Shown in pieces: positions 29,381 through 44,043 of a stretch of 64,000 nt of DNA. Every line of letters starts with the position of its first letter. The stretch's first letter is position 1. The translations under genes and the position numbers were made by a program. The stretch lies in the NCBI GenBank assembly GCA_000092065.1, contig CP000584.1. One strand, 5' to 3'. The notes beneath the pieces were generated by a model, which worked only from the letters and a program-made list of their open reading frames with translations, was not told the DNA's origin and did no database searches. Source of the DNA: Ostreococcus lucimarinus. Lineage: Eukaryota.

Positions 29381-31918
29381 CTAGTTTTGATTGATGCTCG
29401 CGCCACCGAGGGGCGAGAGCGGTGGACGCGCGGATTTGGCGCCGTCGACGCTCGGTCGACGACTTCGGAGCGCTTCGTCGCGGTTGAAACTAAAGGCGCT
29501 CGGCGTCACGGGCTCGGCGAGTAAAACGCGCGCGGACTCGCGCGCGGGAGTTTGTCCAGTCGGTACGTCCTCTCGAACCGCGGTTGAGAGCTCGGAGCTG
29601 AATTGCTCGCGGATGGACGTCAGGTCGCGAACGTGCTTGGACATGAAGTCGGCGACGCCGCGTTCAGACGTCGCGGCGACGGTGTTCGCCAAGTCTGAGA
29701 AAGCCGCGCGATCGCTCGCGAGGGACTGGTTCAACGAATCCACAGTTTCATCGCAACCGCGTCGAGAAGCGACGACTGCTGCCACTGCGTGCTCAGCGGT
29801 CGCTTCGGCCCCAGTGCGCAGCTCGTTTGCGGCTTCCATCAACATGTCTGCCTGCTTCAACATGCTCGCGCGCGCGTACTCGCTCGCCTTGCGCGCAGAC
29901 TGCTCGACGGAGCGTTGCATGTTCGCCACAGATTCCTTCAGTGCGTTCACTTCGTTTTCTTTGCGAACCATAAAATCATCTAAAACCGTCTTCATGTGTG
30001 ATCGCGACTCGCGTTCGACTTCCTGAATTCCCGCCAAGTTTCTCTCGAGCGCCTCCAACCTATCGCACATGGACGTACTCAACTCGCGAATCGCGTCCGC
30101 GTTCGAGTGCATCACACTTTCCTTGCGATTAATCTTCTCAAACAATGCCGTGGCTTCGTCTTTCGCCGCGAGTAAATCCTTCGCCATGGCGCTCGTCGCC
30201 GTGGACAAGTCGTCGTGAGTTTTTTCAAACGCGTCGAGCAAGTACTCCTTCTCGCGCACGTTCTTTTTCGCCCCACTCAACTCCACCGACGTGGTGCGCA
30301 AGTTGTCTTTAGTCTCCCCGAGCTCGACTTCAGTCTCCGCGTGTTGTTCTTTAAGCTGTAAGAAGTTCTTCTTCGTCTTGTCAAACATACGCGTCATCTT
30401 GTCGTGCTCAGCTTTCATCGACGCCAACTCGCGTTCGAGCTCCTCTGCGCGACGCCTCGTCGTCGTATGTTCGCTCTGCTCGGCGTCGTAGTTTGCCTTT
30501 GACATATAGACCCCGTTTTTCTCTCGCGTCGCCAACAAGTCGGCCTGCAAATGCTCAATGCAGCGTTGCATCTCGTTCAAAAAGTCACTCTTCGACTTCT
30601 TGCCATTCACTACGGGAGAGTTTTTAATGTTCTTCGCCCGATGCGCATACTCGAGCGTACTCAACGTTTCCTCCACCGAGTGCGAAGCCGGGGACACGGT
30701 GGCGATGATGCACGTGCGCGATTTTCCGCCCAACGCGTCACGCAGTAATCTCGTGAGCTTACTGTCCCGATACGGTATGTGCACCGACTTGTCGACCAGC
30801 GCCGTGATGACACGTCCGAGCGCGACGAGCGACGTGTTAATCGCCCCAGCCTCCTTCGCACGCTTGTCCTTGGCACCAGATCGCGAAATGTTTTCGCTTC
30901 CGGCCAAATCTACTAGATTCAGCTTGCCAGTACGCACGAACTCTTCGCCATCGGGCGACACATCGGTCCAGTGAACTGTGACGCTGAATACGCTGTGCGA
31001 CCGACTCGAGTGCGCGTTTATATCCGTCGCCTCGGTTTTTCGAAGCGCGTTCCCACGATTCAGCACCGCAAACGCCTCCTCCGTGGAACCGACGTAGACT
31101 TCTTCTAGACCTTTCACGACGACACCATTCTTACCATCCTCCATCAACGCGTGCTCGGTCGCATTCGTCCCGTCCGTCGACGCGCCGAGCAAGTCGGTGA
31201 TTTTCTCGTTGTACAGCTCGAGGTACGTCACCTTGACGCTGTGTTCCAATTCCTTACTCTTGAGATGTTCGAATATGTGCGACATCGCCCGCGGAATCAC
31301 CCCCGCTTCGCTGCTCAAGACATCGCACTCCGCATCGTGCGCCCCGCTCATCGTGTGCGTCTTCCCCGTCCCCGTCTGCCCGTACGCGAACACGGTGCAG
31401 TTCATCCCCTCGAGCACGTCCTTCACCATCGGTCTCACCGCGGAATCATACACCCGTTCCTGCGTCGACTGCGTCCCAAAAACGTCATCAAACGCAAATT
31501 CCTTACTCTCTGACGTCTCTCGCTTCCCTCCGTTCGTCGTCGACGTCCCCGCGCCGCCCCGCGCCACCGCCATCGTGCGCGCGTGCTCGTCCACCGTAAT
31601 CACTTCCGGCACTTTCTCCGCGCGTTCGTTCGCGTTCAGCGGCCTGCGCGCGTCGTTTATCGCGTCGTCAGTCTCATCATCGCTCGTCTCGATCGATCGC
31701 GATCGCGCGCGCGTCCTCCGCGCCTCCTTCGCTCGCGTTCGCGCGTCGCGCGTCGCCGTCGCTCAACGACTGCATTTGAAATTCGCGTCGACATCTTCCT
31801 CGCGCGCGTCGCATCGCGTTCGTCACCGCGCGCACCTGCATCGCAGAACGACGCTGACGCGCACGGTCGAGCCCGGTCGCCGCGCGCGATCGCCCGCGTC
31901 GGGCCGTCGCGACGCCAT
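29381..31918 (-). CDS. kinesin-5 (BimC/Eg5-like) motor protein; two exons 31836..31918 and 29381..31643
   Basis: Motor motifs GQTGTGKTHTM, NLVDLAGSENISRSGA, SLVALGRVITAL, HIPYRDSKLTRLL. Long coiled-coil tail. The track start at 31612 is GTG. Exon 1 (ATG at 31918) encodes MASRRPDAGDRARRPGSTVRVSVVLRC + AG. Joining it to G|CCGCTGAAC recreates the conserved beta1/P-loop-proximal motif VRVSVVLRCRRPLNANER. Donor GTGCGC, branch GACTGACGAC, acceptor CGCGCGCAG. Confidence 0.85.
31644..31835 (-). other. intron (192 nt, phase 2) in kinesin-5
   Basis: See above. Removing it restores the canonical kinesin N-terminal motif. Confidence 0.65.
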
Positions 31919-32116
31919 TCGCGTCGTCGTGTGCGGCGCGACTCCTTCCCCCGCGCGATAAAAGAGAGTTCGGACATTCGGCGTCGTAGAGCGTACGAAA
32001 TGATAGACTGGATAACACAATGTCACTGAATACACATAGGAGTGCGAACACACGCGACGCCGCGACGCCGCGCCGCGACGCGCGGCGCGCGGCACACGCC
32101 GGCGAGCGCGGGCGGG

Positions 32117-34447
32117 ATGCCGGTCCATCGCGACAGCGACCGCGGCGATGCCTCCATCTCGATCGCGTCGCCGTCCGCGAGCGCGCGCGCGCGGAAAGAC
32201 GTCGCGCCGCGTCGAAGGACGACGCCGCGGGCGACGCCGACGACGCGACGACCGACGACGACGACGCGCGCGCTGACGATTAAACCGTTCAAGCGCGCGC
32301 CGGCGGTGCCGGAGGAGTTCGCGAGCGATGCGCGCGCGATGCTGCGCGACGCGATCGCGGCGGTGCAAGAGAAACGACAGACGAGGGAGAGCCACGAGAC
32401 GCTGTACAGGGCGGTGGAGAATTTGTGCGTGCACAAGCGCGGCGACGACGCGTTTGAGGATTTTCGCGCGGGTGGGGACGCGCGGAGCGAAAAGGTGCTC
32501 GTAGAGCTGGAAAAGAAGAAGATAGGTGACTCCATGGTGTTTCTGAGGACGTTTGATGAGGTTTGGGGAGAGTACTGCGCGCAGGCGTTGACGCTGCGGT
32601 CAATTTTTTTGTATTTGGACCGCGCGCGCGCGAACGGGGGTGGGAAGGCGAGCACGCTTTGGGACGTTTCGTTGCGGTTGTTTCACGAACATTTAGAGAA
32701 TTCGGCGAAGAGCGTGAAGGGGAAAGTCGTCCGCGGATTGCTCGATCTCATCGAGCGCGAGAGGATGGGTGAGAAGATTGATAGAGCGCTCGCCAAGCGC
32801 GTGTTGCGCGCGCTGAGCGCGTTGGGCGTGTACGGCGAGGCGTTTGACACCGTCTTCATAGAGGCGAGCCAGGAATTTTACCGTAAAGAAGGGAACGAGT
32901 ACGGGGCACAGACGGATGTTTCTGACTATTTGAAGCACTGCGAGCGACGATTGGAGGAGGAGGCGGAGCGCTGCACGAATTACTTGGACGCCAGCACGGC
33001 GCGAGGGTTGATGCGCGTGTGTGAGCAAGGTTTAATAGAGGCACACATCGGGGATATCCTCGATAAGGGGTTCGTCGATCTCATGCGTCAGCATCGAATA
33101 GACGACTTGAAGCGATTGCACTCACTCTTGGCGCGCATGGACGGATTAGATCGCCTGAGTGCGGCTTTCGTGACGTACCTCAAGCAGCAAGGCACCGCCA
33201 TCGTCAAGGACGACGCGAACGATAAAGAAATGGTCGAACGCTTGCTGGCGATGAAAAGCGCCGTCGACGAAGTGTTGAATAAATCGTTCGGCCGCTCCGC
33301 CGCGGATGGATCGAACGATATTTTCATCAACGGCGTCAAGGAGTCGTTTGAGTCGTTCATAAACTGTCGTCAAAACGTCCCCGCAGAGCTCATAGCCAAG
33401 TACATCGATTCCAAGCTCAAGAGCGGCAACAAAGGCGCGAGCGAGGAGGAATTGGAGACAACATTAGACAAAGCGTTGACGCTGTTTAGGTACATCGTCG
33501 GTAAAGATGTGTTTGAAGGCTTTTACAAGAAGGAGCTCGCCAAGCGTTTGTTACACGCGAAGAGTGCGAGCATCGACGCAGAGAAGAGCATGATTAGCAA
33601 GTTGAAGGCGGAGTGCGGGAGCCAGTTCACGCAGCATCTCGAGGGTATGTTCAAGGATATCGATCTTAGTCGCGAGATCATGCAATCGTTCCGACAGACG
33701 TTTGACGACGAGGCGTTGACAAAGGGTATAGAGATGAACGTAAACGTCATCACGCAAGGATGCTGGCCATCGTATCCAGTTATCGACGTCAATATTCCCG
33801 AGCAACTCGCTGTTTTACAGGAAAAGTTTCAAGACTTTTACCTCGGAAAGCACTCTGGGCGACAGTTGACGTGGCAAAACTCACAAGGCCACTGCGTGCT
33901 GAAGGCGCGATTCGGTAGCGGCATGAAGGAGCTCAGCGTGTCGCTCTTTCAATGCGTCGTACTCATGTTGTTCAATGACGCCGAAAAACTTTCCTACGAG
34001 GACATAGCGTCGAAGAGTGGGCTAGAGGAGAAAGAATTAAAGCGTGCGCTGCAGTCCCTTGCATGTGCCAAGGTCCGTATCTTGAACAAAGAGCCGAAAT
34101 CTCGCGACGTCAACGCGGGCGACGTCTTCGAGGTCAACGCCGCGCTCAACGAGCGCCTGTTCCGCATCAAGGTCAATTCGATTCAAATCAAAGAAACCAC
34201 GGAGGAAAATAAGCAAACCATGGAGCGCGTGTTCCAAGACCGTCAACAGCAAGTTGACGCCGCGATCGTTCGCGTGATGAAGACCCGAAAGTCGCTCACC
34301 CACGCCTTGCTCATCTCCGAGCTCATGGCGCAGCTGAAATTTCCGACAAAGGCGAGCGATTTAAAGAAGCGCATCGAGAGTCTCATCGAGCGCGAGTACA
34401 TCGAGCGCGACCGCGAGGACGCTCAAAAGTACAACTACCTCGCGTAA
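32117..34447 (+). CDS. CUL4: cullin-4
   Basis: Cullin homology region and C-terminal winged-helix/neddylation segment IVRVMKTRKSLTHALLISELMAQLKFP...YIERDREDAQKYNYLA. The N-terminal LTIKPFKRAPAVPEEF...LYRAVENLC matches the CUL4 N-terminus. The track start at 32042 is GTG. The first ATG is at 32117. Confidence 0.85.
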   Translation: MPVHRDSDRGDASISIASPSASARARKDVAPRRRTTPRATPTTRRPTTTTRALTIKPFKRAPAVPEEFASDARAMLRDAIAAVQEKRQTRESHETLYRAVENLCVHKRGDDAFEDFRAGGDARSEKVLVELEKKKIGDSMVFLRTFDEVWGEYCAQALTLRSIFLYLDRARANGGGKASTLWDVSLRLFHEHLENSAKSVKGKVVRGLLDLIERERMGEKIDRALAKRVLRALSALGVYGEAFDTVFIEASQEFYRKEGNEYGAQTDVSDYLKHCERRLEEEAERCTNYLDASTARGLMRVCEQGLIEAHIGDILDKGFVDLMRQHRIDDLKRLHSLLARMDGLDRLSAAFVTYLKQQGTAIVKDDANDKEMVERLLAMKSAVDEVLNKSFGRSAADGSNDIFINGVKESFESFINCRQNVPAELIAKYIDSKLKSGNKGASEEELETTLDKALTLFRYIVGKDVFEGFYKKELAKRLLHAKSASIDAEKSMISKLKAECGSQFTQHLEGMFKDIDLSREIMQSFRQTFDDEALTKGIEMNVNVITQGCWPSYPVIDVNIPEQLAVLQEKFQDFYLGKHSGRQLTWQNSQGHCVLKARFGSGMKELSVSLFQCVVLMLFNDAEKLSYEDIASKSGLEEKELKRALQSLACAKVRILNKEPKSRDVNAGDVFEVNAALNERLFRIKVNSIQIKETTEENKQTMERVFQDRQQQVDAAIVRVMKTRKSLTHALLISELMAQLKFPTKASDLKKRIESLIEREYIERDREDAQKYNYLA

Positions 34448-34608
34448 CGATCGACGCTTAGATAATCGTTTAGACTCGCGCGCACCGCGCATTTGTTTCA
34501 ATACAGTTCCCTCTCGCCGTGGACGCCTCGACGGCGCGACGAAAAATTCAAAAACAGTCAGCCACAGACAGTCACAGTCACCGCACTCGTCGCCGCTTCG
34601 CGTCACCG

Positions 34609-37305
34609 ATGACGCTCGACGCCCTCGACGTTCTCGATGACGACGCCCTGAACGCGCTCGACGTCGACGGCATCGCGCGCGCGGCGGCAAATAAACGCGC
34701 GCGCGTCGACGTCGGATGCGCGCGCGTCGAGACGAATGAGAACGTGGCACCATCGGCTGACGTGCGCGCGACGCTCAAAGCGCGGTTCGGCCTCGATGCG
34801 TTTCGCCCCGGTCAGCGCGAAGTCGTCGAGGCGGTGCTCGCCGGGCGGGACGCGTGCGTGTTCTGGAGCACGGGCTCGGGGAAGTCGTTGCCGTATCAAC
34901 TCGCGGCGTTTGCGAGCGGAAAGAGCGCGGTGGTGGTGTCTCCGTTGATTTCGTTGATGCAGGATCAGGTGACGGCGTTGAACAACACGGTCGGACGCGG
35001 TGATGGGAAAGATGGTGACGTGGCGGTGTTTTTGGGGTCGGCACAGATGGATCACGGCGCGGAGGCGCGCGTGTTTGAGGGGGCGTATGAAATAGTGTAC
35101 TGCACGCCGGAAAAGTTGACGGCGAGCGATTCGTTTTTGAATGGGTTGAAAAGTCTCGCGGCGCGAGGGCGGTTGGGGTTGATCGCGATCGATGAGGCGC
35201 ATTGTATTTCTGCGTGGGGGCACGATTTTCGTCCGTCGTACACGCAGTTACACATGCTTCGCGACGCGATCCCAAATGTTCCGATCATGGCGCTCACGGC
35301 GACGGCGGTGCGTCACGTGCGCGACGATATTTCAAAGATTCTGCGTCTGCGCGATCCGTACGTGAGCGTGAACTCCGTCGATCGCACCAACTTACACATC
35401 AACGTCGTGCGCCGGACGGATTTTTCAAGAGACTTGGATTACATCGTCGAGCGCGTTCGCGCGGGTGCGCGCGTGTCGCCCGCCATCGTTTATTGTCCGA
35501 CGATTGCGGAAGTCGTCAAAGTCGCCGGTGCGCTGAAACAGCGCTTAGGCGACGATGTCGTTCGGATGTATCACGGCCAAATGTCACCGCCGGAGCGACA
35601 CGATGCGCACATGGATTTTTTGACGAGTAGAAGTCCCGTCATCGTGGCGACGACGGCGTTCGGGATGGGTATTGACAAGCCCGACGTGCGAGCGATTACG
35701 TTATTAGGCGCGTCGAAGACGATGGAAGAGTTTTATCAGCAAATCGGTCGAGCCGGCCGCGATGGACTGGCGTCCGAAGTTTCGATGCTGTTCACGGACG
35801 GCGATTTCACGCGCTACGCTTCAGACTTTTACACGAAAGATCTCACGCCTCAAGCTCGCGACGCTCAAGCAAAATCGACGAATGCGCTCAAAGAGTTTGC
35901 GCTTAATCGCGAAACGTGCAGACGGGTGATGATAATGAAACATTTCGGGGAAACTGCGCCCTTCGTCAGGTGTGGCGGTACTTGCGACAATTGTGCGCGA
36001 AGTGAGCGCGGAGACGAACGAAGAAATTTTGCAAAGGAGGCGCTGCCCGTTCTCTTTGCGCTTCGTTACGCCGGGAGTCAGCCGAGTTCGCGCTTGTTGG
36101 ATACCATCATGGGTACTACGAAGAACGCAGCGAGCTTGCAACCTTGGCAGCGACAAGCGATCGATAACGCCCGCCGACTCGATGATTTACAACCAGGATG
36201 CTCTTCGCGCGAGTTCTACAAGGAAATGCTCAGCTTGTTGTCTCAAGTTGGTTTGGTGCGCGCGAGAACCGTCAAAGGCGCTCACTCAACGTATCCAGTT
36301 TACGATCTCGACCCACAAGCACAGGACTTCTTGCAGCAGCAAAATTCAAACCAATTACCGCCGTTGATGCTCATCTGCCCCGAAAGTGTCCTCGCTGCCG
36401 AGCGCGAGATGGCCAAGAAGGCGGATGAAATCAAAGCTAGATTGGTGGGCAGCGGTGTCGACGTCGCGCGCATTCCAGCGCACGAGCTCGCGTCAGGTCG
36501 CGGCGAGCAAATCGATGCCGAATTGGAGTGGATCAATCGACTGGAGTATTACAGGGGCACACCACGCGCCGAGGCCCTCGTTGATCTATTGTCGCAAATT
36601 GAGCAGTGGCGAGACTCTCGCGCGCGCGAACTCGGTATGGCGCCTGCAGCGGTATTGAGCGCGCACTTGTGCAAAAAGATTGCGTACACCGCGCCGCGTT
36701 CGGTCGAAGCATTGCGCGCTGTTGGTGTTCGCGTCACTGGTGTCGAAAGTCTGAGTAAGTTGATTAACGATGCGATGCCAAAGGTTGATGTCGAAACTAC
36801 GAGCAATGGAGCGCTGGAGCTTTCGCTCGGCACCATCGCGCCCAACGCGCGATGGCATCTCGCCGAGTACAAACCAAAGAAAGGACCGGGCGGGACGATG
36901 GTGAAACCGAATTGGGAGGTGAGTTACGAGCGCTTCACGAGCGGCGAACACGTCGAAACGATCGCGCTCACGACGCAGCCAAAGGCGGTTCAACCGGCGA
37001 CGGTATTCAACCACCTGCTCGAGGCTCTCCTGCACGCCAAACCGCTGGATTACGATCGCGCCGCGTCTTACCTCCCCGCGTCGCAACGCTTAACCAAAAG
37101 CGACTGCGCCATGTTCGCCGACGTTCAACTCAGCAAGCGCGTCGACGTCGTCGCTGAGCGCGCGCCGAGCACGCGAGCGTTTCTCGCCGACGTAATTCGC
37201 GACGTTCCCTCCGCGTCCAAGTTCGACGCCGAGCGTCAGCGCGACGCCGTGTGGTACACCAAGCTCCGCACGTGGATCGCCTTGAGACGCGCAGGCGCCG
37301 TCTGA
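34609..37305 (+). CDS. RecQ-family ATP-dependent DNA helicase (helicase + RQC + HRDC-like)
   Basis: GKSLPYQL Walker A. The DEAH box reads DEAHCISAWGHDFRPSY. Helicase C motifs are present. A C-terminal HRDC-like segment is present. The in-frame ATG is at 34609 (the track start at 34519 is GTG). Confidence 0.85.
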   Translation: MTLDALDVLDDDALNALDVDGIARAAANKRARVDVGCARVETNENVAPSADVRATLKARFGLDAFRPGQREVVEAVLAGRDACVFWSTGSGKSLPYQLAAFASGKSAVVVSPLISLMQDQVTALNNTVGRGDGKDGDVAVFLGSAQMDHGAEARVFEGAYEIVYCTPEKLTASDSFLNGLKSLAARGRLGLIAIDEAHCISAWGHDFRPSYTQLHMLRDAIPNVPIMALTATAVRHVRDDISKILRLRDPYVSVNSVDRTNLHINVVRRTDFSRDLDYIVERVRAGARVSPAIVYCPTIAEVVKVAGALKQRLGDDVVRMYHGQMSPPERHDAHMDFLTSRSPVIVATTAFGMGIDKPDVRAITLLGASKTMEEFYQQIGRAGRDGLASEVSMLFTDGDFTRYASDFYTKDLTPQARDAQAKSTNALKEFALNRETCRRVMIMKHFGETAPFVRCGGTCDNCARSERGDERRNFAKEALPVLFALRYAGSQPSSRLLDTIMGTTKNAASLQPWQRQAIDNARRLDDLQPGCSSREFYKEMLSLLSQVGLVRARTVKGAHSTYPVYDLDPQAQDFLQQQNSNQLPPLMLICPESVLAAEREMAKKADEIKARLVGSGVDVARIPAHELASGRGEQIDAELEWINRLEYYRGTPRAEALVDLLSQIEQWRDSRARELGMAPAAVLSAHLCKKIAYTAPRSVEALRAVGVRVTGVESLSKLINDAMPKVDVETTSNGALELSLGTIAPNARWHLAEYKPKKGPGGTMVKPNWEVSYERFTSGEHVETIALTTQPKAVQPATVFNHLLEALLHAKPLDYDRAASYLPASQRLTKSDCAMFADVQLSKRVDVVAERAPSTRAFLADVIRDVPSASKFDAERQRDAVWYTKLRTWIALRRAGAV

Positions 37306-37452
37306 CCGCGTCGCCCCTGGACATCAGAAGACGCAACCGCGGCGTCGCCAATCGCGAATTGTATCACTGAAGAAATCACGTTTGTTTTCCCGCGCATTTT
37401 AAGTTTTCGCGCCAAAACCGATTCGACACTTCACGCCGCATTGTCCTCCGCC

Positions 37453-38805
37453 ATGCTCTCCGAATTCGAGCTCGCCCGCCTCGAACGCATCGAGCAGAAC
37501 AAGAAACGCATGCTCGAGATGGGCATCACCGGCATGGCGCGCGATCTCGCCGCGCGCGCGTCGCCGCAAAAGGTGCGTTCGGCGACGATGAAGACGCGCG
37601 CTGATTTCGTTGCCGATGGCGAAAGACGACGCGGTGGTGGCGTCGATCGACGCTCGATGGCGTCGCACGCGCGATGAAACGATGACTGACGATATAATGC
37701 GCGGATGATGACGCTCGCGACGACGCAGACGCCGCGAAAGCTGAGCATGAAGTACACGCGTAGACCGATCACGCCGGAGAGCGAACGCCGACGGTCGTCG
37801 CGCGAGCGAACGAAGATTTCGTACGTTGGAATGGATGACGGGGCGCAGGATAAGAGCGATCGTGGGTACACGAAACCGGCTCGGGCGCCGACGCGGGCGC
37901 CGCGGGCGGTGTTTTCGGTCGGGGGACGGGTTTACGATAGCGAACGAGGGGTGACGTGTCACTGGTGTCGACAAAAGACGGTGGAGACGCACGTGGCGTG
38001 CACGGGGGAGGCGTGCCAGGGTGCGCGGTTGCCGTTGTCGTTCTGTGGGATGTGTTTGAGAAATCGTCACGGGGAGGACATCGACGACGCCGTCGCGTCG
38101 GGGTGCTGGCAGTGCCCGCGATGCCGCGGATCCTGCGGCGAAGGGTGCGTGACGTGCTGCAACTGCGGACCGTGCCGGAAAAAGGCTGGTCTGGCGCCGA
38201 CGCACCAAGTCATCCAGCTCGCGCGCGCGAGTGGATTCGATAACGTGCACGATTACTTGGTGTCTCAGACCACGCGCGAAGGCCCGAAAGAAATCGCCGC
38301 GCGCAAGCTTTCGTTCCCATGGGGAAAATGGTTGCGCGACGATTTCTGCGCCCCGTGCGCGGCGGATCCCGAGTCCGAATCAGAGGAGCGACAAGTGGAC
38401 GTCGCCGCCGGTTCCTCCGCAGACGATGAAAGCGCGCAAGACGTCCCGTCACCTTTTGACTCCGACGACGATTCGAGCGGATCTGACGACGATCAGTTCA
38501 TGGTCGTCCGCCGCACTCCGACAAAGCGTCCCGCCGCGTCGCCGCGCGCGTCCGCGTCGCCGAAGAAAAAGGCTCGCCCTTCGATCAAAACGCCGGTCAA
38601 GAAACCGATCGAGTCGATCAAGTCGAAGACCGCGCCACCGACGCCCGAACCCATCGCGCACCTCGGCGAAGACGTCTACGAGTTTGAGCGCGTCTTGGCT
38701 CGCCGCAAGCGCGGTCGCGGCGAGCAGCTTCTCATCAAGTGGCGCGGGTTCGGCGAAGACGAAGCGACGTGGGAACCGGCGAGAAACATCATCACGCACG
38801 CGTGA
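37453..38805 (+). CDS. CDCA7-like zf-4CXXC_R1 protein with N-terminal leucine-zipper-like exon and C-terminal chromo domain; proposed exons 37453..37572 and 37729..38805
   Basis: Zn-finger block GVTCHWCRQKT...FCGMCLRNRHGEDIDDAVASGCWQCPRCRGSCG...NCGPCRKK...GFDNVHDYL matches the CDCA7/JPO1 4CXXC domain. The C-terminal EDVYEFERVLARRKRGRGEQLLIKWRGFGEDEATWEP is a chromo domain. The upstream small ORF (MLSEFELARLERIEQNKKRMLEMGI...SPQK) ends at AAG|GTGCGT. A CGCAG|ACG acceptor at 37728/37729 has TGACTGACGAT 38 nt upstream, and the join is phase-0. Confidence 0.7.
37573..37728 (+). other. proposed intron (156 nt) joining the leucine-zipper exon to the 4CXXC exon
   Basis: GTGCGT donor. The tgactgacgat block is identical to the one in the SMC2 intron. 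Acceptor GACGCAG. Confidence 0.5.
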
Positions 38806-39001
38806 GCGCGGCGAGCGCGTCACGACGACGAGCGATGCGATACTATTACTATATACTACACGACGACGCGATATTCGATATTTACGAAGTCAGCAACCAC
38901 CTACAGACGCCAACAGCACAATCCAGCGAATCAAATCTTTCTTTCTTCACTCTTCAGCGGTAATCGCCCTCGCGCTCGCGCTCGAACGGCGACGCGCGAC
39001 G

Positions 39002-42000
39002 ATGTCATCGACGACGACGATGACGACGACGCCGCCGGCGGGACGTTCGAGCGCGAGCGCGACGTCGTCCGCGAAGACCAATTCAGCGAAACCACTCGGG
39101 ACGTTCGATTGCGTGTATCGCGACCCCGACGCGCGCGCGCCCGTGCCTGGGAAGCTCAGCGTGTTCGAAACCGCGCTGTCGTTCACGTCGAACATCCTCG
39201 GGATGAATTTCGGAGGAACGAACGTCAAGATGAAGCTGCGGGACGTCAGCGAGGTGGACGGGACGACGCGGTTGGCGTTGAAGATTACGGGGAGGAACGA
39301 TAAGGTGCTGTTGCTGAGTTTTACGAATAGTGCGCCGGCGTTTGATTGCTTAGCGACGAGTTGGAAGCTGGTCCGCGCGGATGCCGACGTGCGAATCGCC
39401 ACCGGTCCGGGATTGCATCGGAAGAAGAAGTCCGGCGGCGCCGAGGCGAAGAATTTGATAGAGTACGGCAAGGACTTGTTTGAGGAGTATAAAGAGACGA
39501 TGGAGATCAAGGCGAGGAGTTTCGTAGAGGAGGCGAGTAAACTTGGGGCTAAACCGCGGCCGACGCCGAAAATGCCGATGGTCGATGTCGAGGATGAGGT
39601 GTCGAGGGCGCTGTTTATTCGCTTGGTCCGGGCGACGAATGTCGTGGCGATGGATTCGGGTGGGACGTCGGACCCGTTCGCGTCGGTGCGCTACCGTGGG
39701 CTCGAGTCGACGTCAAAAACGATCTGGAAAACGCTCGACCCGGAATGGGATGAGGTGTTCACGTTCAGAGTACCCCCCAACAAGACGACGTTGGACGAAA
39801 CAGATTTCGTAGAGATGCACATCTTTGATCGAGACGTCGCGCTCCATGATTTCATAGGTTATGTTAAACTCGATCTCACCGGTACGCGCGTGTACAGCTC
39901 AAAGCGCACGAAGATGACTCTCGAGTTGAAAAATCTTCCCGCCGACCAGCAGCCAGACTTTTTCGACGTCAATCACTTGAAGGAGAAGCTCATGTTTTGG
40001 GAGGGTGAGCGCCAAATCACGGGTACGGTGGAGATTGAATACTGGCTCGGGAATCGTCACGACGCGGACTACAGGATTGCGGGTGTGCCGTTATTGAGAA
40101 AACCTGATCCACGAGCCGGGGAAGCGATGAATCACTTCTGCGATCCGGTATCGGCACTTTTGCGCGTCGAGGTGAAGTGTGGCAGAAACATAATCAACCT
40201 AGACGACGACGACGGAAGCGATCCATACGTTGAAGTGGCTGTAGTTCAGCCAGATGGGACAGAGGAGAAACATCAAACACACTACATCGACGACGCGACC
40301 GATCCCGAATGGAACAGCACCTTCAACTTTATCGCCGCAAAGCCGTACAAGGCAGATTTAGTATTTCGCATGTACGATTACGATGGCGTGACAAGTTATG
40401 ACGATTTGATCGGCATGGTACGCATACCGATCAGTGAACTACAAACGCACAAAGGAATCACAAAGTTTCCAGACTCGCAGTGGTACACCCTGCTCGACGC
40501 TGAGGGCAAAGACTGCGACAAGGAAGGCACAAAGTACGGCGATATTGAAATCAGGGCCTACCTCGACGAAGAATATTTCGAGCACTTGCACGGTGGTAAC
40601 ACAAGTAAGGCCGTAGGTAAGCTTACATTGGACGTTTTGGAGGCAAAAGACTTAGAAGGCGCGCCGGACACGTACGTCATGGTCAAAACCGGGCCATATT
40701 GGTCGAGATTATCCGATCAAAAGGCGCAAAGCAATCCGCAGTGGAACGTGCGTTTGAGATACCCAATCATAGAACCGAGCGAACCGGTGACGGTCGGGGT
40801 GTTCAATTTATCTGATGGCTCTATGATTGGAAAGATAAGATGTGTTCTCTCTGGTTTAGACGATGGTTTGCGCTACGAGGATGATTTTCCGCTCAAGACG
40901 GTGAACAGGAGCGGTGTCGTCGTGACGAATGGCACGCTGCGCTGTTCGTTTACGTTCAAGCACAAATCGACTGCATCTTTCGCGAGTCGTTACATGCAGC
41001 CAGTACTTCCCGATAAGTGGTATATACAGCCGCTTTCGGATACCGAACGACGGCGCATGCTCAGGGCGCATTCCATGATGATGATGAAGCGACTTTACAA
41101 CTCGAATCCATCCATCCCGGAAGTTGTCTCCAAGGAACTCCTCGACTTTTCCAAGCAAGATGTCAGCATCAAGAGTATCAAGAGCTCAATCGCACGGATG
41201 GAGCGCGTCGTAACGAATTTGACATCGATCGGCGATAATCTTTCGTACGCGCTGAGCTGGGAGTCTATCCCGCTCACTATTTTCGTGCAACTGGTCATGG
41301 TGTACGTCATTCATCATCCGCACATGTTCTTTCCCATGTTCTTCTTGAGCATCGCGTTCCAGTCGCTGATGCGGTTTCCATCGCGTTACCAGCGCACGCT
41401 CGACCGCTGCGTACCTGACGATTGGCTCACCGTCGGCTTGGCGTTTCCACCGGATTCCGAAGAAGAGCTCGAGAAGAAGAAAGCGAGCGAAGCCGAGGCA
41501 AAGAAAAAACTTGAAGAGGCGAAGAAACTCGCGTTGGAGGAAGAAAAGCGTAAGGAAGCGGAAAAGAAAGAAGAAGAGAAGGAATCTGAAATTCAGAAGC
41601 CTCGCGAAGTGTTTTCGTTCGAAAGCCTAAATCCGCTCGCGGCGTTGCAGCGCCAAATGGATGAAATCACACAGATGATTACTGACGCCCAAGTCGTTTT
41701 GGATGACGCCGCCGGTATTCTCGAGCGCGTCGTGGGCATACTAGACTGGGACGAGCCTCGCGTGACCGCGTGCGTCGTCGTCGGTCTTTTCCTCATCGCT
41801 TGGGCTTTCATCTTCATCGACGCCGTCATTCGATTCATAACAACCGTCGTCGTCGGCGTCTTCGTCAAAACATTCTTCACCATCTTCTCCCCGGTCGCCA
41901 TCAAATGGGGCGTTTCATTCGCCACCCTCTTCGCTCTACGCCATCCCGCAATCTTACCCGACGCCGCCACCGCCGCGATCGAGGAAGAAAAGCGTCTTCG

Positions 42001-42169
42001 CCGCGCCGCCGCCCAAGCCGCCGCCCAAGCCTCCAGCGCCGGCGCCAAGGTCGAGAGCAAGGACAAGGCCGAAATCTTCGAGCCCAAATCCGCGGTTTTC
42101 GACCCGAGGCCGCTCGCTCCAGTGAACGTCTTCTACCGAATTCCGACCCAGGCCACGCGCGTGTTGTAA
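39002..42169 (+). CDS. multiple C2 domain and transmembrane region protein (MCTP/QUIRKY-like) with N-terminal GRAM/PH-like segment
   Basis: ATG at 39002 (the track ORF starts earlier, at 38231, and its first 575 nt overlap the CDCA7-like gene). About three C2 domains (e.g. VRATNVVAMDSGGTSDPFASVRY...). C-terminal hydrophobic hairpins (PRT_C-like). A lysine/glutamate-rich coiled segment is present. Confidence 0.8.
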   Translation: MSSTTTMTTTPPAGRSSASATSSAKTNSAKPLGTFDCVYRDPDARAPVPGKLSVFETALSFTSNILGMNFGGTNVKMKLRDVSEVDGTTRLALKITGRNDKVLLLSFTNSAPAFDCLATSWKLVRADADVRIATGPGLHRKKKSGGAEAKNLIEYGKDLFEEYKETMEIKARSFVEEASKLGAKPRPTPKMPMVDVEDEVSRALFIRLVRATNVVAMDSGGTSDPFASVRYRGLESTSKTIWKTLDPEWDEVFTFRVPPNKTTLDETDFVEMHIFDRDVALHDFIGYVKLDLTGTRVYSSKRTKMTLELKNLPADQQPDFFDVNHLKEKLMFWEGERQITGTVEIEYWLGNRHDADYRIAGVPLLRKPDPRAGEAMNHFCDPVSALLRVEVKCGRNIINLDDDDGSDPYVEVAVVQPDGTEEKHQTHYIDDATDPEWNSTFNFIAAKPYKADLVFRMYDYDGVTSYDDLIGMVRIPISELQTHKGITKFPDSQWYTLLDAEGKDCDKEGTKYGDIEIRAYLDEEYFEHLHGGNTSKAVGKLTLDVLEAKDLEGAPDTYVMVKTGPYWSRLSDQKAQSNPQWNVRLRYPIIEPSEPVTVGVFNLSDGSMIGKIRCVLSGLDDGLRYEDDFPLKTVNRSGVVVTNGTLRCSFTFKHKSTASFASRYMQPVLPDKWYIQPLSDTERRRMLRAHSMMMMKRLYNSNPSIPEVVSKELLDFSKQDVSIKSIKSSIARMERVVTNLTSIGDNLSYALSWESIPLTIFVQLVMVYVIHHPHMFFPMFFLSIAFQSLMRFPSRYQRTLDRCVPDDWLTVGLAFPPDSEEELEKKKASEAEAKKKLEEAKKLALEEEKRKEAEKKEEEKESEIQKPREVFSFESLNPLAALQRQMDEITQMITDAQVVLDDAAGILERVVGILDWDEPRVTACVVVGLFLIAWAFIFIDAVIRFITTVVVGVFVKTFFTIFSPVAIKWGVSFATLFALRHPAILPDAATAAIEEEKRLRRAAAQAAAQASSAGAKVESKDKAEIFEPKSAVFDPRPLAPVNVFYRIPTQATRVL

Positions 42170-42501: not shown

Positions 42502-44043
42502 ATGCCTCGCTCGAGCGCGGCGAGCATGGAGGCGACGATGACGCCCGGTCAGCTCGGATGGGACTTTTCCCAGGTTTTCGGCGAACGCGCGCCGGGGGAG
42601 GAGGTGCAGGACGCGGATGTCATATCGGCGGTAGAGTTTAACGCCGATGGAGAAAAACTGGCGACAGGTGATCGCGGTGGGCGTGTCGTGCTGTTTGAAC
42701 GCGTGTACCAGAGTAAGAGCGCGATGGAGGAGTTACGTTCGAGGTTCGACGAGAGCGGCGTGGCGAGCGACGTCGACGGCGGCGAGAAAGGGACGGACGC
42801 GGCGTTTAGTGGACGCAAGGAACCGGTGGAATATCGTTACTTGACCGAGTTTCAATCGCACGAGCCGGAGTTTGATTATCTCAAGTCGCTGGAGATTGAG
42901 GAGAAGATCAATACGTTGAAGTGGTGTCACCAAGGGGCGAACGACGCGAATTTCTTGTTGTCCACAAACGACAAGACGATCAAGCTCTGGAAGGTATATG
43001 AGAAGCACTTAGAGTGCGTGAGTGGGTTCAACGTCCATAGAGAAGAAGATAGATTCGGGTTTAGACGGACGAATGGTGGGAAGGCCGCCACGACGAGCGC
43101 GACGGGCATTGGCGCTTTGGCGAATGAGCAACACGCGGGCGCGCTGAAGATTCCCTCCGTCGTGCGTGGGGAGAGCGTGTTCACGGCGAGAAACCGGCGA
43201 ATGTATGCGAACGCGCACGCGTATCACATCAACTCGCTGAGCGTGAATAGCGATGGAGAGACGTTTATTAGTGCGGATGATTTGCGGATAAACTTGTGGC
43301 ACTTGGAGAGTACGCAGCAAAGTTTCAACATCGTGGACATCAAACCTACGAACATGGAAGACTTGAGCGAGGTGATCACCGCCGCGGAATTTCACCCGGT
43401 GCACTGTAACTATTTGGCGTTCTCGTCGAGCAAAGGAACCATACGTTTGACGGATTTACGTCAACACTCGGTGTGCGATTCGCACTGTAAGCTGTTTGAA
43501 CTCCCGGAGCCGGCGGAGAAGAGAAGTTTCTTTTCGGAAATCATAGCCAGCATCAGCGACATCAAGTTCAGTCGAGACGGTCGATACATATTATCGCGAG
43601 ATTATCTCACCATGAAACTTTGGGACGTCAACATGGACAGCAAACCTGTGGCGACGGTGAACGTGCACGAGCACCTTCGTCCCAAACTGTGCGACTTGTA
43701 CGAGAACGATTCTATTTTCGACAAGTTTCAATGCTGCGTCAACCACGACGGTTCTCAAGTCGCCACAGGTTCATACGGGAACGTGTTCAAGAGCTTTAAC
43801 ACCGCTATCGGCGACGAGGGTGAATCGGGAGGCCAATTTGAAGTGTCCAAGGATCCGCGGGGCAGATTGACTCCGAAGACGCGCGGCAACGGATATCACG
43901 GCGGCGCCGGTGACATCTTCAACCTTCCTCCGGCTGATTTCCGCGCGAACAAAATCCTCCACATGGCCTGGCACCCGAAAGAAGACATCATCGCCACTGC
44001 CGCCGCCAACTCCCTGTACTTCTTCTCCGGCGGCTCTCCGTGA
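42502..44043 (+). CDS. protein phosphatase 2A regulatory subunit B (B55/PR55, WD40)
   Basis: ATG at 42502. ISAVEFNADGEKLATGDRGGRVVLFE, EFDYLKSLEIEEKINTLKW, NDKTIKLWKV and YHINSLSVNSDGETFISADDLRINLW are typical B55 blocks. Confidence 0.9.
   Translation: MPRSSAASMEATMTPGQLGWDFSQVFGERAPGEEVQDADVISAVEFNADGEKLATGDRGGRVVLFERVYQSKSAMEELRSRFDESGVASDVDGGEKGTDAAFSGRKEPVEYRYLTEFQSHEPEFDYLKSLEIEEKINTLKWCHQGANDANFLLSTNDKTIKLWKVYEKHLECVSGFNVHREEDRFGFRRTNGGKAATTSATGIGALANEQHAGALKIPSVVRGESVFTARNRRMYANAHAYHINSLSVNSDGETFISADDLRINLWHLESTQQSFNIVDIKPTNMEDLSEVITAAEFHPVHCNYLAFSSSKGTIRLTDLRQHSVCDSHCKLFELPEPAEKRSFFSEIIASISDIKFSRDGRYILSRDYLTMKLWDVNMDSKPVATVNVHEHLRPKLCDLYENDSIFDKFQCCVNHDGSQVATGSYGNVFKSFNTAIGDEGESGGQFEVSKDPRGRLTPKTRGNGYHGGAGDIFNLPPADFRANKILHMAWHPKEDIIATAAANSLYFFSGGSP

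What the first reader, a model, noticed from the sequence alone, without database searches (positions are those of the whole stretch)
37453..38805. CDCA7-like 4CXXC zinc-finger protein fused to a chromo domain, with a separate leucine-zipper-like first exon
The zinc-finger block is a clear zf-4CXXC_R1 (CDCA7/JPO1) domain. In animals this domain recognises hemimethylated DNA and recruits HELLS/LSH (the DDM1 family) through an N-terminal leucine zipper. Here a 40-aa upstream exon (MLSEFELARLERIEQNKKRMLEMGI...) with exactly that character is joined by a GTGCGT / TGACTGACGAT / CGCAG intron. The protein ends in a canonical chromo domain (YEFERVLARRKRGRGEQLLIKWRGFGEDEATWEP). That C-terminal chromo domain is not part of canonical CDCA7. 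It suggests direct coupling of histone-methyl-lysine reading to maintenance of DNA methylation.
Basis: partly seen in the sequence, partly recalled or inferred. Interest (0 to 1): 0.65.

Follow-up and report, generated by a model that had tools for sequence, protein, structure and literature searches.

The report
Ostreococcus CDCA7-like chromodomain protein gene
This is a real two-exon gene of the green alga Ostreococcus lucimarinus for a chromatin protein that joins a CDCA7-type methyl-DNA zinc finger to a shortened chromodomain; it is a paralogue of CDCA7, not its orthologue, and both the protein and this kind of fusion are already on record.

Summary
The window is Ostreococcus lucimarinus CCE9901. 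The ORF at 37705-38805 is RefSeq XP_001417133 (UniProt A4RVG9, 'Chromo domain-containing protein').

- **Domains:** Pfam gives zf-4CXXC_R1 (E 6e-31) and Chromo (E 1e-10).
- **Splice:** the proposed 40-codon first exon and 156-nt GT..AG intron are supported. One public contig lacks exactly those 156 bases. The curated O. tauri orthologue has the same two-exon form. The exon-1 peptide is conserved in every orthologous locus examined.
- **RefSeq error:** the O. lucimarinus RefSeq model starts inside the intron and misses exon 1.

The interpretation needs correction.

- The zinc finger is 'class II': the ICF glycine G294 is replaced, and there are two insertions.
- Funabiki et al. 2023 list this protein as class II and a different gene (XP_001421158) as the CDCA7 orthologue.
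- They find no DNMT1 or UHRF1 in this genome. DNMT5 and HELLS are present.
- The chromodomain keeps its aromatic cage but ends before the C-terminal helix.
- Exon 1 matches the CDCA7 HELLS-binding helix but is not a heptad leucine zipper.

Class II finger plus chromodomain is already described in Acanthamoeba and Taphrina, and I found more in Amoebozoa. This is a new member of a known kind. The function is inferred, not shown.

The parts
37453..37572 (+). Exon 1: 40 codons, starting at the ATG. It is missing from RefSeq model XP_001417133.
   Evidence: It is joined to exon 2 in contig L007. The peptide is conserved in O. tauri and in loci L008-L010.
37462..37557 (+). N-terminal amphipathic helix, residues 4-35, of the CDCA7 HELLS-binding-helix type (LSE[FY]E..R..RI..N...[ML]..[LM]G).
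   Evidence: AlphaFold2 predicts helices 4-23 and 25-35 with pLDDT above 90. The motif is shared with core chlorophyte, amoebozoan and class I animal proteins.
37573..37728 (+). Intron of 156 nt, GTGCGT...CGCAG. A CTGAC lies at 37686-37690, with its A 39 nt before the acceptor. The ATG of the RefSeq model (37705) lies inside this intron.
   Evidence: It is absent, to the base, from contig L007. It has in-frame stops. The orthologous introns are 148, 157 and 191 nt with the same GTGCG donor.
37729..38805 (+). Exon 2: residues 41-398 plus the TGA stop at 38803-38805.
   Evidence: L007 runs colinear with the genome through the stop codon to 38911, so there is no further intron.
37774..37809 (+). 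Conserved basic motif PESERRRSSRER (residues 56-67), between the helix and the zinc finger.
   Evidence: R61 and R62 are nearly invariant in alignment A1. The function was not tested.
37933..38259 (+). zf-4CXXC_R1 zinc finger, class II. Pfam covers residues 109-217. The confidently folded domain in the model is residues 101-245 (37909-38343).
   Evidence: Pfam E 6.3e-31. Sequence match to human CDCA7 chains at E about 2e-23. The model matches CDCA7 on a nucleosome (8yv8_K) with TM 0.86 and rmsd 2.3 A. All 11 signature Cys are present. R121, Q122 and R153 are equivalent to human R274, Q275 and R304. Leu143 stands in place of G294.
38128..38151 (+). Eight-residue Cys-rich insertion (GSCGEGCV) specific to the chlorophyte class II finger. 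It and its flank add the invariant cysteines C176, C180 and C183.
   Evidence: Seen in the alignment to human CDCA7. Invariant across 29 and 95 homologues. It co-occurs with His at the position of human Y305.
38344..38664 (+). Low-complexity linker, residues 246-352, rich in Ser, Pro, Ala, Asp and Lys. It contains a basic SPKKKARPSIK... stretch at 38557-38628.
   Evidence: pLDDT is below 50 over residues 256-346.
38473..38532 (+). Conserved acidic-then-hydrophobic motif SSGSDDDQFMVVRRTPTKRP (residues 289-308) inside the linker.
   Evidence: Conserved in all chromodomain-bearing orthologues (SESDDDxFM[VI]VxRTPKKR). AlphaFold2 places a short strand at 299-301, but with low confidence.
38677..38793 (+). 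Chromodomain of the HP1/CDY type, truncated. It has three strands and the aromatic cage Y357, W378, F381. The protein ends five residues after the strand that holds the WEP motif.
   Evidence: Pfam E 1e-10, profile positions 1-40 of 53. PDB sequence hits to CDYL2, HP1 and LHP1. The model superposes on the CDYL2 chromodomain at rmsd 1.2 A over 45 columns. Strands are at 356-368, 371-378 and 387-390, with no C-terminal helix.

Best explanation
The locus is one two-exon gene of Ostreococcus lucimarinus encoding a 398-aa nuclear chromatin adaptor. It belongs to the chlorophyte 'class II' branch of the zf-4CXXC_R1 (CDCA7) superfamily.

**Shown here**
- The gene structure.
- The three folded modules and their order: an N-terminal helix of the type that binds HELLS in CDCA7; a CDCA7-fold zinc finger; and, after a disordered linker, an HP1/CDY-like chromodomain.
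- The finger keeps the residues that read a hemimethylated CpG in human CDCA7 (R274, Q275) and a DNA-backbone contact (R304).
- The chromodomain keeps its aromatic cage but lacks the C-terminal helix.

**Inferred**
- The finger binds (hemi)methylated CpG.
- The chromodomain binds a methylated H3 lysine (K9 or K27) on a neighbouring nucleosome.
- The N-terminal helix recruits the HELLS/DDM1-type remodeller. This would help DNMT5, the only maintenance methyltransferase reported for this lineage, restore CG methylation after replication.
- The protein would act alongside, not instead of, the class I CDCA7 orthologue encoded elsewhere in the genome.
For: **Identity**
- The ORF is identical to XP_001417133 / A4RVG9 of O. 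lucimarinus CCE9901.

**Gene model**
-.

**Domains and fold**
- Pfam, PDB sequence search, the AlphaFold2 model and Foldseek (8yv8_K TM 0.86; CDYL2 rmsd 1.2 A).
- R121, Q122 and R153 align with human R274, Q275 and R304. Their roles in 5mC and hemimethylation reading are described in PMC11343034.
- The aromatic cage residues Y357, W378 and F381 align with the cage residues of CDYL2 and HP1.

**N-terminal helix**
- It is conserved from Ostreococcus to Chlorella, Tetradesmus, Chlamydomonas eustigma and Balamuthia.
- A profile built from it detects the N-helix of class I CDCA7 proteins.
- That helix is the experimentally defined HELLS-binding helix of CDCA7 (PMC11343034).

**Partner**
- Ostreococcus-type HELLS ORFs carry KLDDKKFKQLDALLDQTTIYSQFLSEQMD. 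This matches the segment LNDSQFSKLDDLLTQTQLYSEFLLEKMD of a plant protein that its source names DDM1, which I take to be the DDM1 CC2 helix.

**Genome context (Funabiki 2023)**
- 5mC, DNMT5, HELLS, EZH and EED are present. DNMT1 and UHRF1 were not detected.

**Recurrence**
- Histone-reader domains are repeatedly fused to this finger. Of 98 cluster representatives, 9 match Chromo (one of them, P0266, is the lone representative with no finger match), 2 match PHD and 3 match Tudor-type domains. This argues that such fusions are functional.
Against: - No binding or genetic data exist for any class II finger of this clade.
- The G294-equivalent residue and the spacing around two zinc ligands differ from CDCA7. 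S330, a backbone contact in human CDCA7, is Gly here. Hemimethyl specificity may therefore differ.
- The chromodomain lacks the helix that packs on the sheet in HP1-type domains, so it may be unstable or need a partner. Its pLDDT is only 71-87.
- The chromodomain is dispensable in relatives. The Bathycoccus-like orthologue has none. A Micromonas pusilla homologue has a PHD finger instead, and most chlorophyte homologues have neither.
- A class I CDCA7 is listed for the same genome and may be the real HELLS partner.
- Similarity of the N-helix to class I proteins is strong for one sequence and weak for the others (E 0.06-0.8 against a small set).
- I could not establish whether contig L007 comes from RNA or DNA.
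Confidence: 0.55

Rival explanations
1. Same protein and architecture, but it is not part of the DNA-methylation maintenance machinery. It would be a repressive-chromatin reader or transcriptional co-repressor, as CDCA7L/R1 was first described. It would use the finger for general DNA or nucleosome binding and the chromodomain for H3K27me3 or H3K9me. The N-helix would bind some partner other than HELLS.
For: - It is class II, not class I.
- Arabidopsis class II proteins (DDR1-3) work with ISWI, not DDM1.
- A separate class I CDCA7 is listed in the genome.
- PRC2 subunits are present.
- The ZF insertion and the replaced G294 could change DNA specificity.
Against: - R274-, Q275- and R304-equivalent residues are invariant across the clade.
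- The N-helix resembles the HELLS-binding helix.
- Ostreococcus HELLS keeps a segment that matches what I take to be the CC2 helix.
- The protein has no DDT or WHIM domain.
- According to Funabiki 2023, zf-4CXXC_R1 proteins occur only in lineages with HELLS and DNMTs.
Confidence: 0.25
2. The C-terminal chromodomain is a decaying remnant that no longer reads methyl-lysine. The protein would work like the many chlorophyte class II homologues that have only the helix and the finger.
For: - The domain stops at profile position 40 of 53 and lacks the C-terminal helix.
- The Bathycoccus-like orthologue has lost it.
- Most chlorophyte homologues have no reader domain.
- A metagenomic relative with the same finger type (P0199) still has the full-length chromodomain. 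This fits progressive truncation.
Against: - The truncated domain is strongly conserved across all Ostreococcus-like lineages and one Micromonas-like lineage. They share YEFE..L.RRKRGRGEQLLIKWRGF....ATWEP..NI, with the aromatic cage intact and stop codons at nearly the same place.
- That conservation indicates purifying selection on the short form.
- AlphaFold2 still folds it as a three-stranded chromo sheet.
Confidence: 0.15
3. The RefSeq model is right. The protein would be the 366-aa ORF starting at ATG 37705, and the upstream 40-codon ORF would be a separate small gene, a uORF or chance.
For: - The RefSeq and UniProt models start at 37705.
- A continuous ATG-to-stop ORF exists there.
Against: - The contig with the intron removed encodes the fused protein.
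- The O. tauri curated model is spliced.
- The exon-1 peptide is conserved across species, whereas the ORF's first eight residues (MMTLATTQ; seven of their codons lie in the intron) have no counterpart in the orthologues.
- The same N-helix is contiguous with the finger in intron-free homologues such as Chlorella, Tetradesmus and Balamuthia.
Confidence: 0.03

Closest known systems
Ostreococcus tauri XP_022838683.1 / CEF97425.1 ('Zinc-finger domain of monoamine-oxidase A repressor R1'), also OUS49249.1 ('cell division cycle associated 7'); 408 aa
   Same: Direct orthologue, in the same 50%-identity cluster. It has the same N-helix, class II finger with insertion, linker motifs and truncated chromodomain. 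Its model already has the two-exon structure.
   Different: It is a different species. The annotated exon-1/exon-2 junction lies a few codons further on. The O. lucimarinus RefSeq model lacks exon 1.
Class II zf-4CXXC_R1 + CHROMO proteins: Acanthamoeba castellanii XP_004340890 and Taphrina deformans CCG81269 (Funabiki et al. 2023); Balamuthia mandrillaris KAL6077673.1; Protostelium and Clastostelium transcripts
   Same: They combine a G294-substituted 4CXXC_R1 finger with a chromodomain. Balamuthia also has the same N-terminal helix and the same domain order, and it aligns with residues 3-395 of the query in one stretch.
   Different: - Their fingers lack the chlorophyte Cys-rich insertion (CRGICNCSFC).
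- Their chromodomains mostly match nearly the full Pfam profile (51-53 of 53). Protostelium, like this protein, matches only positions 1-40.
- In Protostelium and an unnamed relative (P0233) the chromodomain is N-terminal.
- Whether the fusions share an origin or arose independently is open.
CDCA7 / CDCA7L / CDCA7e (class I; human NP_665809, Xenopus CDCA7e; Arabidopsis CDCA7 alpha and beta)
   Same: - They share the zinc-finger fold (TM 0.86 to 8yv8_K).
- All 11 signature cysteines and R274, Q275 and R304 are present.
- The N-terminal helix is of the HELLS-binding type.
- The order is helix, then finger.
   Different: - G294 is replaced by Leu.
- Spacing changes from CX7C to CX9C and from CX3C to CX11C.
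- S330 becomes Gly.
- A C-terminal chromodomain is added.
- Class I proteins have proven hemimethyl-CpG binding and HELLS activation. This protein has neither shown.
- A separate class I gene is listed for this genome.
Arabidopsis DDR1-3 (class II zf-4CXXC_R1 + DDT + WHIM1; ISWI partners)
   Same: They share the class II definition, substitution of the ICF glycine.
   Different: This protein has no DDT or WHIM1 domain. In Funabiki's tree the DDR fingers form a clade separate from the Micromonas/Bathycoccus/Physcomitrium class II clade. DDR proteins partner ISWI.
HP1 / Polycomb / CDY-family chromodomains (e.g. CDYL2 5jjz, HP1 1kna, LHP1 7vyw)
   Same: They share the three-stranded sheet, the aromatic cage Y/W/F and the KW[KR]G[FY]....TWEP signature. 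Sequence E-values are about 5e-7, and rmsd is about 1 A over 37-45 residues.
   Different: This domain lacks the C-terminal alpha-helix. Its K9 or K27 specificity cannot be read from the sequence.

Membership tests
Pfam PF10497 zf-4CXXC_R1 | Full-length match to the profile above the gathering score | tested here: met
   106.9 bits against 22.7, profile 1-99/99, residues 109-217.
Pfam PF10497 zf-4CXXC_R1 | Eleven signature cysteines in the order CXXC-X10-C-X4-C-X7-CXXC-X19-CXXC-X3-CXCXXC | tested here: met
   C117, C120, C131, C136, C146, C149, C169, C172, C184, C186 and C189 are all present. Two spacings differ: X7 becomes X9 and X3 becomes X11 (pattern).
CDCA7 orthologue (class I zf-4CXXC_R1, Funabiki 2023) | ICF residue R274 conserved | tested here: met
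   R121 lies in CHWCRQKT and aligns with human CHQCRQKT.
CDCA7 orthologue (class I zf-4CXXC_R1, Funabiki 2023) | ICF residue G294 conserved (Gly three residues before the fifth Cys) | tested here: not met
   The sequence is GARLPLSFC against human GVRG--QFC, with Leu143 at position -3. The source paper lists XP_001417133 as class II and XP_001421158 as CDCA7.
CDCA7 orthologue (class I zf-4CXXC_R1, Funabiki 2023) | ICF residue R304 conserved | tested here: met
   R153 lies in CLRNRHGE and aligns with human CLRNRYGE.
CDCA7 orthologue (functional definition) | [quoted passage not shown] | not testable with these tools
   Only the residues can be assessed. R121 and Q122 (equivalent to R274 and Q275) are present. 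The S330-equivalent residue is Gly187.
CDCA7 orthologue (functional definition) | N-terminal HELLS-binding helix (HLBH) | tested here: inconclusive
   - The helix is predicted at residues 4-35 with pLDDT above 90.
- The profile of algal helices hits class I P0277 at E 1e-6, but P0260, P0270 and P0267 only at 0.06-0.8.
- Binding to HELLS was not tested.
- Ostreococcus-type HELLS ORFs have a segment resembling the DDM1 CC2 helix.
Class II zf-4CXXC_R1 (Funabiki 2023) | zf-4CXXC_R1 with a substitution at the G294 position | tested here: met
   Leu143. The protein is listed as class II in Figure 1-source data 1.
DDR1-3 type class II proteins | DDT and WHIM1 domains | tested here: not met
   No DDT or WHIM hit at E up to 1.
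Pfam PF00385 Chromo (HP1/Pc/CDY type) | Profile match above the gathering score | tested here: met
   41.8 bits against 25.1, E 1e-10. PDB chromodomain hits at E about 5e-7.
Pfam PF00385 Chromo (HP1/Pc/CDY type) | Aromatic cage of three residues | tested here: met
   Y357, W378 and F381 align with the Y, W and Y/F of CDYL2 and HP1.
Pfam PF00385 Chromo (HP1/Pc/CDY type) | C-terminal alpha-helix packing on the sheet (profile positions about 41-53) | tested here: not met
   - The match ends at profile position 40 of 53, and the stop codon follows three residues after the match ends.
- The model has no C-terminal helix.
- No downstream exon exists, because L007 is colinear through the stop.
- Nearly all orthologues stop within a few residues of the same point; the longest tail adds about ten residues and no helix.
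Pfam PF00385 Chromo (HP1/Pc/CDY type) | Binding of methyl-lysine histone peptides | not testable with these tools
   Needs peptide binding assays.

The most novel reading that the evidence does not exclude
In Mamiellales, which lack DNMT1 and UHRF1 and keep dense CG methylation with DNMT5 alone, this class II CDCA7 paralogue would be the missing link between histone methylation and DNA-methylation inheritance.

- Its finger would sense hemimethylated CpG.
- Its helix-less chromodomain would read H3K9me or H3K27me on the adjacent nucleosome.
- Its N-helix would bring in HELLS.

By extension, all class II proteins that keep the N-helix would be alternative HELLS adaptors with interchangeable reader modules (chromo, PHD, Tudor).
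Probability: 0.15. Interest if true: 0.6.

Novelty: new member of a known kind. Interest (0 to 1): 0.35.

Why it matters
- **Annotation.** The O. lucimarinus RefSeq and UniProt model (XP_001417133 / A4RVG9) lacks its first exon. That exon carries the one motif suggesting a link to HELLS. The HELLS model of the same genome also looks N-terminally truncated. Comparative studies that rely on these models will miss both interaction helices.
- **Biology.** CDCA7 research has concentrated on class I proteins. A class II clade that keeps the HELLS-binding-type helix and the 5mC-reading residues, and that repeatedly acquires histone readers, gives a testable hypothesis. It could explain how HELLS/DDM1 is targeted beyond CDCA7. 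An Arabidopsis study raises this question: it suggests class II/III homologues may partly compensate in recruiting DDM1 (PMC12718391).
- **Tractability.** O. tauri would be a natural place to test the idea. It has a compact genome and, to my knowledge, can be transformed (not checked here). As a Mamiellophyceae relative it presumably also relies on DNMT5, but Funabiki's panel covers O. lucimarinus, Bathycoccus and Micromonas, not O. tauri.
- **Limit.** None of this is a new kind of system.

Tried and rejected
1. **A hidden 3' exon supplying the missing chromodomain helix.** I considered a GTGAGC donor overlapping the stop codon. I rejected it because L007 is colinear with the genome through the stop to 38911. 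Orthologues also stop at nearly the same place, and the next gene starts at 39002.
2. **Nucleotide identity of exon 1 against the intron between species.** This was uninformative. Global alignments of GC-rich DNA gave 0.59-0.71 for everything, against 0.56-0.58 for shuffled controls. I used peptide conservation and frame changes instead.
3. **Retrieving the O. lucimarinus class I CDCA7 (XP_001421158) to test it directly.** I queried with the Micromonas class I finger taken from the paper's alignment. Only 30 short candidates came back, none attributable to Ostreococcus. The existence of the class I paralogue rests on Funabiki's table.
4. **A chromodomain exon downstream of the Bathycoccus-like orthologue.** None was found in the roughly 500 nt before the contig ends.
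5. **A literature search for CDCA7 + zf-4CXXC_R1 + 'chromodomain'.** It returned nothing because the key paper writes 'CHROMO domain'.
6. **phmmer with the 40-residue exon-1 peptide alone.** It did not reach class I proteins. A profile of 30 algal helices was needed.
7. **The antisense ORF at 37399-38250.** I treated it as a by-product of high GC content and did not pursue it.
Full report
**What is in the sequence**

The window has about 60% G+C. The ORF at 37705-38805 is identical to XP_001417133.1 / ABO95426.1 / UniProt A4RVG9 of Ostreococcus lucimarinus CCE9901, which UniProt names 'Chromo domain-containing protein'.
- ATG at 37453.
- A 120-nt first exon encoding MLSEFELARLERIEQNKKRMLEMGITGMARDLAARASPQK.
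- GTGCGT at 37573.
- TGACTGACGAT at 37683-37693.
- CGCAG ending at 37728.
- A second exon in phase, running to the TGA at 38803-38805.

Reading through the intron in frame meets two stop codons. The start codon of the RefSeq model lies inside the intron. The ORF's first eight residues (MMTLATTQ; the ATG and the next six codons lie in the intron) have no counterpart in any orthologue.

**Is the splice real?**

Four lines of evidence agree.
1. An exact-sequence look-up found the 398-aa spliced protein in one public contig, Logan assembly of run SRR28369019.
   - That contig (L007) matches window 34918-37572 and 37727-38911 at 99.8% identity.
   - It lacks exactly the 156 bases, with junction CAAAAG|ACGCCG.
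   - I could not learn whether that run is RNA or DNA. Its first 80 bases are unrelated to the window. Even so, base-exact removal of a GT..AG segment is the signature of splicing.
2. The curated O. tauri orthologue (XP_022838683.1, 408 aa) begins MTCAFELERQARIDSNRKRMLEMGIVGMARDLAKTATPVK..., joined to ...RRIERRPVTPESERRRS.
3. Three further Ostreococcus-like metagenomic loci share the same neighbours, RecQ helicase upstream and a C2-domain gene downstream.
   - In each, a conserved exon-1 peptide (FELERARRIESNRKRMAEMGL, FELERAARIEANKARMAAMGI or FEAARAARIEENKRRMAEMGI) lies upstream of a GTGCG[T/C]...AG intron.
   - The introns are 148, 157 and 191 nt and shift the reading frame.
4. In homologues without an intron at this position, the same helix is contiguous with the finger. 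Examples are Chlorella vulgaris, Tetradesmus, Chlamydomonas eustigma, Symbiochloris and Balamuthia.

The 'two separate genes' alternative is effectively excluded.

**Domains**

- Pfam on the spliced protein gives zf-4CXXC_R1 at E 6.3e-31, full profile, residues 109-217. Chromo scores E 1e-10 at residues 357-395, covering profile positions 1-40 of 53.
- Against PDB sequences, the best hits are the CDCA7 finger chains 8tlk, 8tle and 8yv8 (E about 2e-23). The CDYL2, CDYL, HP1, MPP8 and LHP1 chromodomains follow.
- I made an AlphaFold2 model from a 95-sequence alignment. Its features are:
  - N-terminal helices at 4-23 and 25-35, pLDDT above 90.
  - A folded finger domain at 101-245, pLDDT above 90.
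  - A disordered linker, pLDDT below 50 over 256-346.
  - Three strands at 356-368, 371-378 and 387-390, pLDDT 71-87, with no C-terminal helix.
- Foldseek places the finger on CDCA7 bound to a hemimethylated nucleosome (8yv8_K; TM 0.86, rmsd 2.3 A). It places the C-terminus on CDYL2 (rmsd 1.2 A over 45 columns).

**Which kind of 4CXXC finger?**

Funabiki et al. 2023 (PMC10538959) define class I, the CDCA7 orthologues, by eleven signature cysteines plus the three ICF residues R274, G294 and R304. Class II is defined by substitution of G294.
- All eleven cysteines are present here.
- R121, Q122 and R153 correspond to R274, Q275 and R304.
- The G294 position is Leu143, inside a two-residue insertion (GARLPLSFC against human GVRG--QFC).
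- S330 is Gly187.
- An eight-residue Cys-rich insertion (GSCGEGCV) sits between the eighth and ninth signature cysteines.

This finger type is invariant across the chlorophyte family. The paper's source table lists the following for O. lucimarinus:

| Category | Entry |
|---|---|
| Class II zf-4CXXC_R1 | XP_001417133 (this gene) |
| CDCA7 | XP_001421158 |
| Other zf-4CXXC_R1 | XP_001420168 |
| HELLS | XP_001422035 |
| DNMT5 | XP_001417393 |
| DNMT1, DNMT3, UHRF1 | not detected |
| EZH and EED | present |
| 5mC | present |

So the protein is a paralogue of CDCA7, not its orthologue. I could not retrieve XP_001421158 to test it myself.

**The first exon**

It is not a heptad leucine zipper: the positions seven residues on from L7 are E14, L21, M28 and R35. 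It does belong to the motif LSE[FY]E..R..RI..N...[ML]..[LM]G. That motif heads the class II proteins of chlorophytes and Amoebozoa. It also resembles the N-terminal helix of class I animal-type CDCA7 proteins, for example:
- P0277: ELSEYEIKRLERIKRNKAMLDSLF.
- Homarus americanus CDCA7-like: LSDYELLREKNIQDRQQLIAALM.

A profile built from 30 algal helices finds P0277 at E 1e-6. It finds P0260, P0270 and P0267 at 0.06, 0.4 and 0.8, within a set of about 310 proteins. This region of CDCA7 is the 'leucine zipper' of the older literature. It is the experimentally defined HELLS-binding helix (PMC11343034).

The partner side also fits. Ostreococcus-type HELLS ORFs (P0314, 796 aa, 95% identical to the O. 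lucimarinus SNF2 region) carry KLDDKKFKQLDALLDQTTIYSQFLSEQMD. This matches the segment LNDSQFSKLDDLLTQTQLYSEFLLEKMD of a plant protein that its source names DDM1; from memory of DDM1 I take that segment to be its CC2 helix. The RefSeq HELLS model starts its SNF2 domain at residue 22, against 229 in Bathycoccus and 165 in Micromonas. It is therefore probably truncated at the N-terminus, as this gene's model is.

**The chromodomain**

The aromatic cage (Y357, W378, F381) and the KWRGF....ATWEP signature are intact. The protein ends NIITHA, five residues after the strand that holds the WEP motif (387-390). Nearly all orthologues end within a few residues of the same point (the longest tail adds about ten residues and no helix), including those in all Ostreococcus-like lineages and a Micromonas-like lineage (P0283). 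No downstream exon exists. The short form is therefore conserved, not an annotation artefact. I cannot tell whether it folds alone or needs a partner. I also cannot tell whether it prefers K9 or K27.

**Distribution**

A search of 1.84 billion cluster representatives gave 1701 hits at E up to 1e-3. At 50% identity, the whole Ostreococcus clade collapses into one representative.

I scanned the 98 listed representatives of at least 260 aa against Pfam:

| Pfam family | Representatives matching |
|---|---|
| zf-4CXXC_R1 | 97 |
| Chromo | 9 |
| WHIM1 | 5 |
| PHD | 2 |
| PTM/DIR17 Tudor | 2 |
| Tudor-knot | 1 |

One of the nine Chromo matches is P0266, a multi-chromodomain protein; since 97 of 98 match the finger, it is presumably the one without it.

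Other finger-plus-chromodomain proteins include:
- Balamuthia mandrillaris KAL6077673.1, which has the same helix-finger-chromo order and aligns with the query in one stretch.
- Clastostelium.
- Protostelium, with the chromodomain at the N-terminus.
- Several unnamed metagenomic proteins. One of them (P0199) has the chlorophyte-type finger and a full-length chromodomain.

Funabiki et al. had already noted class II finger plus CHROMO in Acanthamoeba and Taphrina.

Within Mamiellales the reader module varies:
- Ostreococcus has the chromodomain.
- The Bathycoccus-like orthologue has none.
- A Micromonas pusilla homologue (A0A7S0PT87) has a PHD finger.
- Other Micromonas-like proteins have neither.

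**How it most likely works**

*Shown:* the gene structure, the three modules and their order, the conservation of the 5mC-reading residues and the aromatic cage, and a HELLS gene in Ostreococcus-type contigs that carries a CC2-like helix.

*Inferred:*
- The finger binds (hemi)methylated CpG.
- The chromodomain binds methylated H3.
- The N-helix recruits HELLS.
- The complex assists DNMT5-based maintenance methylation.

I put about 0.95 on the architecture and about 0.4 on this mechanism. The combined statement is scored 0.55.

*Rivals:*
- A methylation-independent repressive reader or co-repressor (0.25).
- A decaying, non-functional chromodomain (0.15).
- The RefSeq one-exon model (0.03).

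**Comparison and novelty**

- The protein works like CDCA7 in layout but fails the class I test at G294.
- It meets the minimal definition of class II.
- It is unlike the DDR class II proteins, having no DDT or WHIM domain.
- Its closest described relatives in architecture are the amoebozoan and Taphrina class II-CHROMO proteins.
- The protein, both its domains and its class are already in public records.

What this analysis adds:
- A corrected O. lucimarinus gene model.
- The observation that class II proteins keep the HELLS-binding-type helix.
- The conserved truncation of the chromodomain.
- The variation in the reader module among Mamiellales.

Verdict: a correct and careful observation of a new member of a known kind. 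Interest 0.35.

Noticed in passing
window 38128-38151 (residues 174-181) and residue H154 (38068-38070): The chlorophyte class II finger has three extra invariant cysteines (C176, C180, C183) in and next to an 8-residue insertion. It has His where human CDCA7 has Y305. The long spacer (11-12 residues, with at least 3 Cys) goes with His in 121 of 132 distinct sequences. The short spacer goes with Tyr in 26 of 27. This suggests a fourth, CCCH zinc site, but the pattern is confounded by phylogeny and I could not inspect model geometry.
   Followed up: partly
not in the window: O. lucimarinus HELLS XP_001422035 against protein P0314: In the published alignment the RefSeq HELLS model starts its SNF2 domain at residue 22, against 229 in Bathycoccus and 165 in Micromonas. 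Ostreococcus-type ORFs extend about 200 residues further upstream and contain an acidic stretch and a CC2-like helix. The RefSeq HELLS model is therefore probably N-terminally truncated.
   Followed up: partly
window 38473-38532 (residues 289-308): The motif SSGSDDDQFMVVRRTPTKRP, a Ser/Asp run followed by a hydrophobic FMVV core, is conserved in all chromodomain-bearing orthologues. It looks like a phospho-regulated SUMO-interaction motif, or a strand that could dock on the helix-less chromodomain. AlphaFold2 draws a strand at 299-301, but with low confidence.
   Followed up: no
homologues P0062, P0079, P0102, P0103, P0105, P0110, P0113 (alignment A1, last block): Core-chlorophyte homologues have no chromodomain. 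They end instead in a conserved motif, LSRKQR[IM]..R[ML]GL. It resembles the end of the N-terminal helix (NKKRMLEMGI). One such protein (P0095) gave a weak second match to the N-helix query near its C-terminus.
   Followed up: no
homologue P0045 (Micromonas pusilla A0A7S0PT87), also P0063, P0089, P0115: Micromonas homologues with a near-identical class II finger carry a PHD finger in the C-terminal tail, where Ostreococcus has the chromodomain. Different histone-reader modules therefore occupy the same place in related proteins.
   Followed up: partly
window 26806-54328: The neighbouring genes are ordinary nuclear housekeeping genes:
- MCM5-like, 26806-29007 (-)
- kinesin, 29381-31612 (-)
- cullin, 32042-34447 (+)
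- RecQ-type helicase, 34519-37305 (+)
- a protein with three C2 domains, 39002-42169 (+)
- WD40 protein, 42502-44043 (+)
- RHD3/Sey1 GTPase, 45413-47950 (-)
- SMC protein, 50846-54328 (+)

The order RecQ, this gene, then the downstream C2-type gene recurs in the Ostreococcus-like contigs that extend that far. No HELLS or DNMT gene lies in the window.
   Followed up: partly
window 57386-60751 (+) and 60890-63997 (-): Two long ORFs, of 1121 and 1035 aa, have no Pfam match at E up to 1e-5.
   Followed up: no
locus L007, bases 1-80: The first 80 bases of the spliced contig match nothing in the window and look lower in G+C. The contig is probably chimeric at that end, so its provenance should be checked before it is cited as transcript evidence.
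   Followed up: partly
window 37399-38250 (-): A 283-aa antisense ORF overlaps exon 1, the intron and the finger region. It is typical of GC-rich coding DNA and is probably not a gene.
   Followed up: no
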